A stretch of DNA of 64,000 bases from Octopus sinensis (Eukaryota), in the NCBI RefSeq assembly GCF_006345805.1, contig NC_043018.1:14012001-14076000 (forward strand), given 5' to 3'. Below, in pieces: positions 61,639-62,293 of the stretch; position 1 is the stretch's first letter; every line of letters starts with the position of its first letter. Both the position numbers and the translations under genes were made by a program. Under the pieces are notes generated by a model. The model was not told where the DNA came from. It did not search any database and was given only the letters and a program-made list of their open reading frames with translations.

Positions 61639-61919
61639 GAATAGAAAGAAAGGAAGAGGGTAATATAGAGAGACAGGGGTAGAGTTAGTGCACTTACTTG
61701 GGTACGCAATGTGTAAATGAAAGCTACACTTGCACTCATAATGACAGAACCAAAAAGACGGCGAGCCTGGCGGGGAATAATCTATTATTTTTTTTTCTTT
61801 TTGAAAGTAAATTGGTATTTATTTTATTATTCATGTAACCAGCAAGAAATTTGATAAAAGTTAAATAATATCTTTTGTATACATTTCCTGATATTTCTCT
61901 TTGGGTAAATATCAGGAAA

Positions 61920-62258
61920 CAATTGCAGCGTGGAAGGTGTTTGTAAGTCATTTAAGAAACACACGAAAGCCGTTCAATTCACTTTAACATTTAAGTTTAA
62001 TTTGACAAAATATTTTCGTCGCTATAAGACCGCGACCTGTTCACTGACAAAAATCTCTGCTGCACGGATTTTTGTCAGTGAACAGGTCGCGGTCTTATAG
62101 CGACGAAAATATTTTGACAAATTAAACTTAAATGTTGAAGTGAATCGAACGGCTTTTGTGTGTTTCTTAAATGGCTTACAAACACCTTCCACGCTGCAAT
62201 TGTTTTCGTTCCAGCACACGATCTCAGATCAAATCACTTGCTATGCAAGTACATCTCC
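61920..62258 (+). mobile_element. young palindromic PLE-type element with 15-bp TSD and variant hammerheads
   Basis: Arms at 61917-62055 and 62067-62205 are near-perfect inverted repeats. GTAAATATCAGGAAA occurs at 61905-61919 and 62259-62273. Confidence 0.85.
62071..62121 (+). ncRNA. hammerhead-fold motif with G3-C8 swapped core
   Basis: UUUGUCA-GUGAACA-G-GUCGC-GGUCUUAUA-GCGAC-GAAA-AUA-UUU/UGACAAA. Mirror copy on the minus strand at 62001-62051. Confidence 0.65.
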
Positions 62259-62293
62259 GTAAATATCAGGAAATACATATTATAACGGGTAAG

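What the first reader, a model, noticed from the sequence alone, without database searches (positions are those of the whole stretch)
61905..62273. Natural G3-C8 swapped hammerhead in a ~290-bp near-perfect palindrome with 15-bp TSD
Seen: both arms carry GUGAACA in place of CUGANGA, with a 7-bp stem I (perfect in the + arm, one mismatch in the - arm), a perfect 5-bp stem II, GAAA and palindromic AAUAUU. The insertion duplicates GTAAATATCAGGAAA, which is itself one arm of a pre-existing hairpin (TTTCCTGATATTT at 61884-61896). Established: C3 and G8 form a tertiary Watson-Crick pair in the active HHR, and the compensatory G3-C8 double change rescues some activity. Inference: this is a variant-core ribozyme that standard CUGANGA searches would miss. 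It is present on both strands, so transcription either way yields one HHR and a long dsRNA. The predicted UUU triplet is atypical.
Basis: partly seen in the sequence, partly recalled or inferred. Interest (0 to 1): 0.8.

Follow-up and report, generated by a model that had tools for sequence, protein, structure and literature searches.

The report
Swapped-core hammerhead in octopus Penelope repeat
This palindrome is a short, doubled-back copy of the front end of a very abundant Penelope-type jumping gene, likely from an octopus, and it carries a hammerhead RNA motif with two paired core letters swapped; that would be a new natural form of this self-cutting RNA, but cutting is untested.

Summary
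The sequence observation holds. The insert is not a stand-alone ribozyme palindrome. It is the pLTR plus the first 30 codons of a Penelope-like element (PLE) ORF, joined head-to-head with an inverted copy, with a 57-nt one-sided tail. [quoted passage not shown] This layout is the published PLE pattern. The motif fits the PLE minimal hammerhead: extra base 9a, G10.1-C11.1, palindromic helix III, 93 nt before the ATG as in relative L003. G3 and C8 are family-wide: among 7,000-19,000 contigs per run in four runs, no G>C change reaches 2% anywhere. In 10 of 10 other PLE-type motifs found by a search blind to positions 3 and 8, the two stay complementary (5 C-G, 5 U-A). G-C is a third natural pair that I did not find in print, but one key paper was unreadable. 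Corrections: U17 is common in PLE hammerheads; part of the 15-bp duplication is element sequence; read-through RNA would bury the ribozyme in dsRNA; family ends do not sit at the cleavage site. Cleavage is untested and probably weak.

The parts
61883..61896 (.). Arm of a 14-bp hairpin at the target site; its partner is the duplicated target sequence
   Evidence: one of 3 perfect hairpins of 14 bp or more in the window with the insert removed; extension beyond 14 bp not significant (164 of 2000 shuffles)
61905..61919 (+). Left copy of the direct repeat (likely target-site duplication); last 3 nt overlap the inverted arm
61917..62060 (-). Inverted copy of pLTR plus ORF head, without the tail; probably extends to 62064
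   Evidence: 137 of 144; majority letter A at 62061
62001..62051 (-). Second copy of the G3-C8 hammerhead motif (G3 at 62044), one stem I mismatch
62061..62064 (.). Self-complementary 4-mer at the head-to-head junction; inferred annealing point of the two cDNAs
   Evidence: sequence; role inferred
62062..62262 (+). Sense copy: pLTR, ORF head and tail; matches the family's common unit of about 200 bp (loose ends cluster at 62058-62070 and 62258-62266)
   Evidence: tables 2 and 7
62071..62121 (+). Minimal type I hammerhead motif: G3=62078, C8=62083, extra G 62085, stem II 62086-90/62100-04, G12=62105, palindromic helix III 62108-13, predicted cut after 62114
   Evidence: architecture as in PMC4209133
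62171..62260 (+). First 30 codons of the PLE RT-endonuclease ORF
   Evidence: (29 of 30 identical to P0003)
62206..62262 (+). 57-nt one-sided tail; likely the stretch between two reverse-transcription start sites
   Evidence: absent from the left arm; largest loose-end cluster at 62262: 155, 133, 175, 103 contigs; model from PMC11167929
62259..62273 (+). Right copy of the direct repeat; first 4 nt are also element sequence (likely priming microhomology)

Best explanation
The insert is the pLTR and first 30 codons of a very abundant Penelope-like retroelement, joined head-to-head with an inverted copy, and its hammerhead motif has a family-wide G3-C8 core that likely keeps weak, dimer- or protein-assisted self-cleavage. 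Shown: PLE identity, layout, family-wide G3/C8, and complementary 3-8 pairs in relatives. Inferred origin: the PLE protein nicked both target strands up to 15 nt apart; one 3' end primed reverse transcription at the position of 62262 (4-nt match), the other 57 nt further in at 62205 (3-nt match, 5 with a wobble); both cDNAs ran over the intact cleavage site to the same RNA boundary near 62058 and joined at a self-complementary 4-mer. Inferred activity: two motifs pair through the palindromic helix III to form the active double hammerhead in tandem or multimeric element RNA. At this locus a read-through transcript would pair the motif with its antisense arm and not cut.
For: Peptide 29 of 30 identical to P0003; P0004/P0080 run on into RT motifs; 29 longer homologs found, and the full-length ones read have RT plus C-terminal GIY-YIG. 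Motif lies 93 nt before the ATG, against 93 in L003 and 102 in L001. Four of 9 listed variants in the ORF head are synonymous third positions. Inverted copy plus one-sided tail is the described PLE layout, and the tail equals the stretch between two RT starts in PAc. G>C changes: none at 2% or more in 4 of 4 runs; C>G only at 62057 in 2 of 4 runs; the 4 listed variable sites inside the motif are in loop II or keep pairing as G-U. Search blind to positions 3 and 8: 15 of 16 hit positions complementary, null 0.75 hits per replicate with 27% complementary. The family sits in a 99/98-supported clade with a C-G (L001) and a U-A (L002) relative. The engineered C3G/G8C double mutant of a PLE hammerhead is partly active.
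Against: No cleavage data. The helix III duplex is predicted at only -0.2 kcal/mol, against -0.8 to -7.5 for five 6-nt helices of relatives, and G3 pairs with U17 in 67% of the monomer ensemble. No step in depth and no listed loose end at the predicted cut, so copies were made from uncut RNA; PAc hammerhead mutants still insert in vitro. 37 of 77 variant rows were not shown, so low-level G3A or C8U, and one C>G place in X1 and X4, are not excluded. The blind descriptor was written after I had seen the motifs. A second end cluster near 62205 has only weak support (22 contigs at 62200 in one run). The empty site and a full-length copy of this family's DNA were not seen.
Confidence: 0.68

Rival explanations
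1. PLE remnant as above, but the motif is a catalytically dead or negligible relic: G3 and C8 were fixed in one master copy and spread because cleavage is not needed for insertion; the fold may at most serve as a protein-binding or structural element.
For: Very weak helix III and a competing G3-U17 pair; copies span the cut site; hammerhead dispensable for PAc insertion in vitro; Naiads spread without canonical hammerheads. Uniformity of a young family is descent, not selection.
Against: Two transversions restore exactly the required pair while all other core bases stay intact; the pair is complementary in 10 of 10 other motifs; the same engineered swap is partly active.
Confidence: 0.24
2. 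One reading: a bidirectional unit in which either transcript yields an active ribozyme and a long dsRNA, inserted by preference into hairpins.
For: The motif is on both strands and the target has a 14-bp hairpin, rare in this window.
Against: The antisense arm is upstream in both directions and the insert folds as one hairpin; depth and loose ends show a unit of about 200 bp as the common form; inverted copies are a known by-product of PLE insertion; one target site only.
Confidence: 0.05
3. A DNA foldback element or MITE whose hammerhead likeness is chance.
For: Long inverted repeat with a flanking direct repeat.
Against: It encodes the N-terminus of a PLE ORF, has a one-sided tail, and the motif is at the hammerhead position of relatives; 0 of 30 resamples matched.
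Confidence: 0.02

Closest known systems
Minimal hammerheads of metazoan PLEs (Cervera and De la Pena 2014, PMC4209133; read parts 1-2 of 4 of the text and parts 1-2 of 3 of supplement file 2)
   Same: Type I, extra base between 9 and 10.1, G10.1-C11.1, palindromic helix III, location in the pLTR, opposite-strand pairs 100-700 bp apart, U17 frequent.
   Different: Core is G3-C8; the 56 listed motifs begin with C3 (53) or U3 (3), none with G3. Base 9a is G, outside their H consensus, though G also occurs in one of their rows and in L001-L003, L006, L008, L022.
PAc, Poseidon of Anolis carolinensis (Frangieh et al. 2024, PMC11167929; read parts 1-2 of 4)
   Same: Hammerhead at the pLTR-ORF junction, two RT start sites bounding a tail, both strands nicked and extended, uncut RNA as template; C3G/G8C partly active.
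   Different: There the swap is engineered, here natural. Tail 57 nt, not 30-40. PAc priming is described as non-homologous; here short matches lie at both junctions. The ORF starts 93 nt after position 3, not at stem II.
C-terminal EN+ PLEs with a linker Zn finger (Neptune or Nematis clades; Craig et al. 2021, PMC8557442; passages and supplement hits read)
   Same: Homologs have RT, a CX4CxxC linker and C-terminal GIY-YIG; the short linker resembles the Nematis rows of their alignment.
   Different: DKG motif reads DKS; no tree with named references was built, so the clade is not fixed. Not a Naiad (nuclease is C-terminal).
Natural U3-A8 core variants (Perreault et al. 2011, PMC3088659; section 8 and passages read)
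   Same: Compensatory change of the 3-8 pair in nature.
   Different: U-A keeps pyrimidine-purine order; G-C reverses it and needs two transversions.

Membership tests
Penelope-like element (C-terminal EN+) | ORF with telomerase-like RT and C-terminal GIY-YIG nuclease | tested here: met
   Met for the family, not this copy: 30 codons here match P0003; P0004/P0080 reach RT motifs; full-length homologs have RT and GIY-YIG motifs; Pfam hits weak, below cut-off (P0014 RVT_1 and GIY-YIG, E about 6e-4)
Penelope-like element (C-terminal EN+) | pLTR with hammerhead just upstream of the ORF start | tested here: met
   93 nt here; 93 in L003, 102 in L001, about 211 in L006
Penelope-like element (C-terminal EN+) | Inverted truncated copy and one-sided tail | tested here: met
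   layout
Penelope-like element (C-terminal EN+) | Target-site duplication confirmed by an empty site | tested here: inconclusive
   Direct repeat at both ends; no empty-site joint among 15 of 156 shown
Nematis or Neptune clade | RT phylogeny with named references | not tested
   Only linker motif compared
PLE minimal hammerhead | Stems I and II, base 9a, G10.1-C11.1, palindromic helix III | tested here: met
PLE minimal hammerhead | U4 G5 A6 A9 G12 A13 A14 A15.1 U16.1 and H17 | tested here: met
   All present
PLE minimal hammerhead | C3 and G8 identity (CUGANGA) | tested here: not met
   G3 and C8, family-wide
PLE minimal hammerhead | Watson-Crick pair between 3 and 8 | tested here: met
   G-C here; complementary in 10 of 10 other motifs
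PLE minimal hammerhead | Self-cleavage after position 17 | not testable with these tools
   Contigs show no ends; no assay
Rfam hammerhead families | Score at gathering threshold | tested here: not met
   No hammerhead hit; Rfam also missed the canonical C3-G8 minimal motifs in this window, so this says little

The most novel reading that the evidence does not exclude
An active natural G3-C8 hammerhead, known so far only as an engineered rescue mutant, is fixed in one of the most abundant Octopus repeat families, and one PLE clade has used C-G, U-A, G-C and perhaps A-U at this pair, so core-sequence searches miss whole ribozyme families.
Probability: 0.4. Interest if true: 0.6.

Novelty: new variant of a known kind. 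Interest (0 to 1): 0.42.

Why it matters
The 3-8 pair was established by structure and by engineered rescue; in what I could read, natural covariation is reported only as U-A. A family-wide G-C extends that evidence to a purine-pyrimidine reversal and shows that published descriptors (CUGANGA) undercount PLE hammerheads. It also gives a ready test of an open question: whether PLE hammerheads are kept for cleavage, given that insertions are made from uncut RNA. The insertion itself is a compact in vivo example of the two-start-site model of PLE copying. The element class, palindrome and tail are known.

Tried and rejected
No whole genome is held, so copies could not be aligned one by one. No other copy in the window. 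Pattern scan of metagenome contigs for the motif with 3, 7, 8 free: 0. Protein-based scans of viral contigs: 0 relatives in 2 scans. Rfam: only generic hairpin hits below threshold; a miRNA reading was rejected. MAFFT could not align the 11 short motifs past stem II, so no covariance model was built. Pfam gave nothing for P0002 or P0004; the Atlas gave unnamed eukaryotic clusters with DUF8422 on 16-41% of members. 14 of 22 related loci gave no motif, many too short to hold a pLTR; L005 has a possible A3-U8 motif by eye that failed the descriptor and is left out of the count. Five runs guessed to be RNA hold 0.47-0.60 of the words; none was laid, so expression is not claimed. The idea that U17 was selected to avoid a G3-C17 pair is weakened because U17 is common anyway. 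A longer old inverted repeat at the target was not supported. Lunse et al. (about PLE hammerhead variants; seen only as a reference) could not be read.

Full report
Observation. The arms 61917-62060 and 62062-62205 are complementary at 137 of 144 positions, and a 15-bp direct repeat lies at 61905-19 and 62259-73. The - arm has the same motif with one stem I mismatch. None of 30 Markov resamples of the window gave a motif this strong.

What the element is. An ATG at 62171 opens 30 codons that are 29 of 30 identical to the N-terminus of P0003, named as an Octopus sinensis protein; O. bimaculoides and O. vulgaris records hold the same family. The window is therefore likely from an Octopus; the species is not determined. 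[quoted passage not shown] By the criteria in PMC8557442 (passages; supplement rows) that is a Neptune- or Nematis-type PLE; the short linker looks Nematis-like, untested by a tree with named references. In relatives the hammerhead lies 93 (L003), 102 (L001) or about 211 nt (L006) before the ATG; here 93. So the insert is pLTR plus ORF head, in sense with a 57-nt tail and inverted without it, the layout drawn for PLEs in PMC8557442.

The family. I laid 4 of 24 listed runs, one per coded organism. They gave 19,313, 10,897, 15,933 and 6,986 contigs on 484 bases. Summed depth of 0.6-4 million against single contigs of 6-60 suggests tens of thousands of copies; the tool warns this is no copy number, so it is an order-of-magnitude inference. 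Loose ends cluster at 62058-62070 and 62258-62266, largest at 62262. P0003 continues with a codon that the window leaves after 62262, so the first 4 nt of the right 15-mer are element sequence. No depth step or listed loose end falls at the predicted cut, so copies came from uncut RNA.

Is G3-C8 the consensus? Reversion at either arm would appear as G>C or C>G. No G>C place reaches 2% in any of the 4 runs. C>G occurs at one place in X2 and X5, which is the listed 62057; X1 and X4 have one more, not shown. Neither 62078 nor 62083 is among the 40 rows shown of 77. The listed variable sites in the motif are two in loop II (59-97% of depth), C11.1 to U (4-8%, a CpG) and a stem I U-A to U-G change (7-17%). 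Low-level transitions at 3 or 8 may hide in the 37 rows not shown. Uniformity within a young family is descent, so this settles consensus, not selection.

Is the pair maintained? I fetched 22 loci encoding relatives and scanned them and the window (131,007 bases) with a descriptor that ignores positions 3, 7, 8 and 17. It hit 16 positions, 15 with complementary 3-8; resampled sequence gave 0.75 hits per replicate, 27% complementary. After merging duplicates and setting the focal motif aside, 10 motifs remain: 5 C-G and 5 U-A; the one non-complementary hit (46172, G17) has no PLE context that I checked and fits the chance rate. Eight of 22 loci had hits. The descriptor was written after I had looked at some motifs. 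In a 15-row tree the family falls in a 99/98 clade with L001 (C-G) and L002 (U-A), unresolved inside. Three different pairs in one clade, with the rest of the core intact here, argue that the pair is under constraint.

Literature. PMC4209133 (text parts 1-2 of 4; supplement file 2 parts 1-2 of 3; file 1 not searchable) describes base 9a, the palindromic helix III, dimer action, low activity and a U3-A8 variant; none of its 56 motifs starts with G3, and 24 have U17. PMC3088659 (section 8, passages; supplements not read) reports U3-A8 as the first natural covariation. PMC11167929 (parts 1-2 of 4) shows that C3G/G8C partly rescues a PLE hammerhead, that cleavage needs the protein, and that it is dispensable for insertion in vitro. 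PMC3884650 (one passage) notes a G3-C8 variant is more active with G17 than C17. That any Watson-Crick 3-8 pair can work in some type III ribozymes is recalled, from no call. Searches for a natural G3-C8 and for cephalopod hammerheads found none, but Lunse et al., the largest survey of these motifs, was unreadable, and most subscription papers are not held.

Mechanism. Inferred: staggered nicks, priming at two RNA sites 57 nt apart as in PAc, with 4-nt and 3- to 5-nt matches at the junctions, both cDNAs ending near 62058 and joining at a self-complementary 4-mer. Both arms share a minority letter in loop II, which fits one source. Support for the inner start site is this copy's arm end plus one weak cluster. 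The ribozyme would act as a double hammerhead in multimeric element RNA, probably slowly: helix III is predicted at -0.2 kcal/mol and G3-U17 competes in the monomer. At this locus the antisense arm comes first in both directions and the insert folds as one hairpin, so read-through RNA would give dsRNA, not cleavage. The target hairpin is real and uncommon (3 in the window), but one site shows no preference.

Verdict. An ordinary PLE insertion carrying a real, family-wide, apparently unreported G3-C8 hammerhead core. New variant of a known kind; activity untested. Interest 0.42.

Noticed in passing
window 7159, 27341, 15042, 58235 (+), 4805 (-), about 6955 (+): Further minimal type I hammerhead motifs with C3-G8 cores, probably from other PLE families; 4805 and the one near 6955 carry U4C. 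Rfam at gathering score missed all of them.
   Followed up: partly
window 37372-38007: Another inverted-plus-direct PLE-like arrangement with a U3-A8 hammerhead motif at 37803.
   Followed up: partly
L022 2533-2580; L001 4965-5018: Core variants in relatives: both have U15.1-A16.1 swapped; L022 also has G5A. L002 has A9C with U3-A8.
   Followed up: no
L005 about 2810: Possible A3-U8 motif behind the ORF, which would be the fourth pair type; stem I is not convincing.
   Followed up: partly
L022: A PLE ORF with pLTR on a 2.7-kb contig filed in a Desulfobulbaceae genome; probably eukaryotic contamination of the bin.
   Followed up: no
window 61917-62060: At all 7 sites where the arms differ, the left arm holds the letter that is rare in the family; the asymmetry is unexplained (different template copy, or error-prone synthesis). 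None is an A-to-G change in RNA sense.
   Followed up: partly
window 62058-62070: Low-agreement loose ends show a pyrimidine run ending in CAG just before the family's 5' boundary in some copies; it may be a splice acceptor next to stem I, as described for Drosophila Penelope.
   Followed up: no
P0003 (family member of window 62171-62260): The database gene model fuses the PLE N-terminus to a methyltransferase domain; likely a chimeric prediction or an exonised insertion.
   Followed up: no
window 61827-61894: The left flank is itself a moderately repeated sequence in all four runs, so the element landed at the edge of an older repeat.
   Followed up: partly
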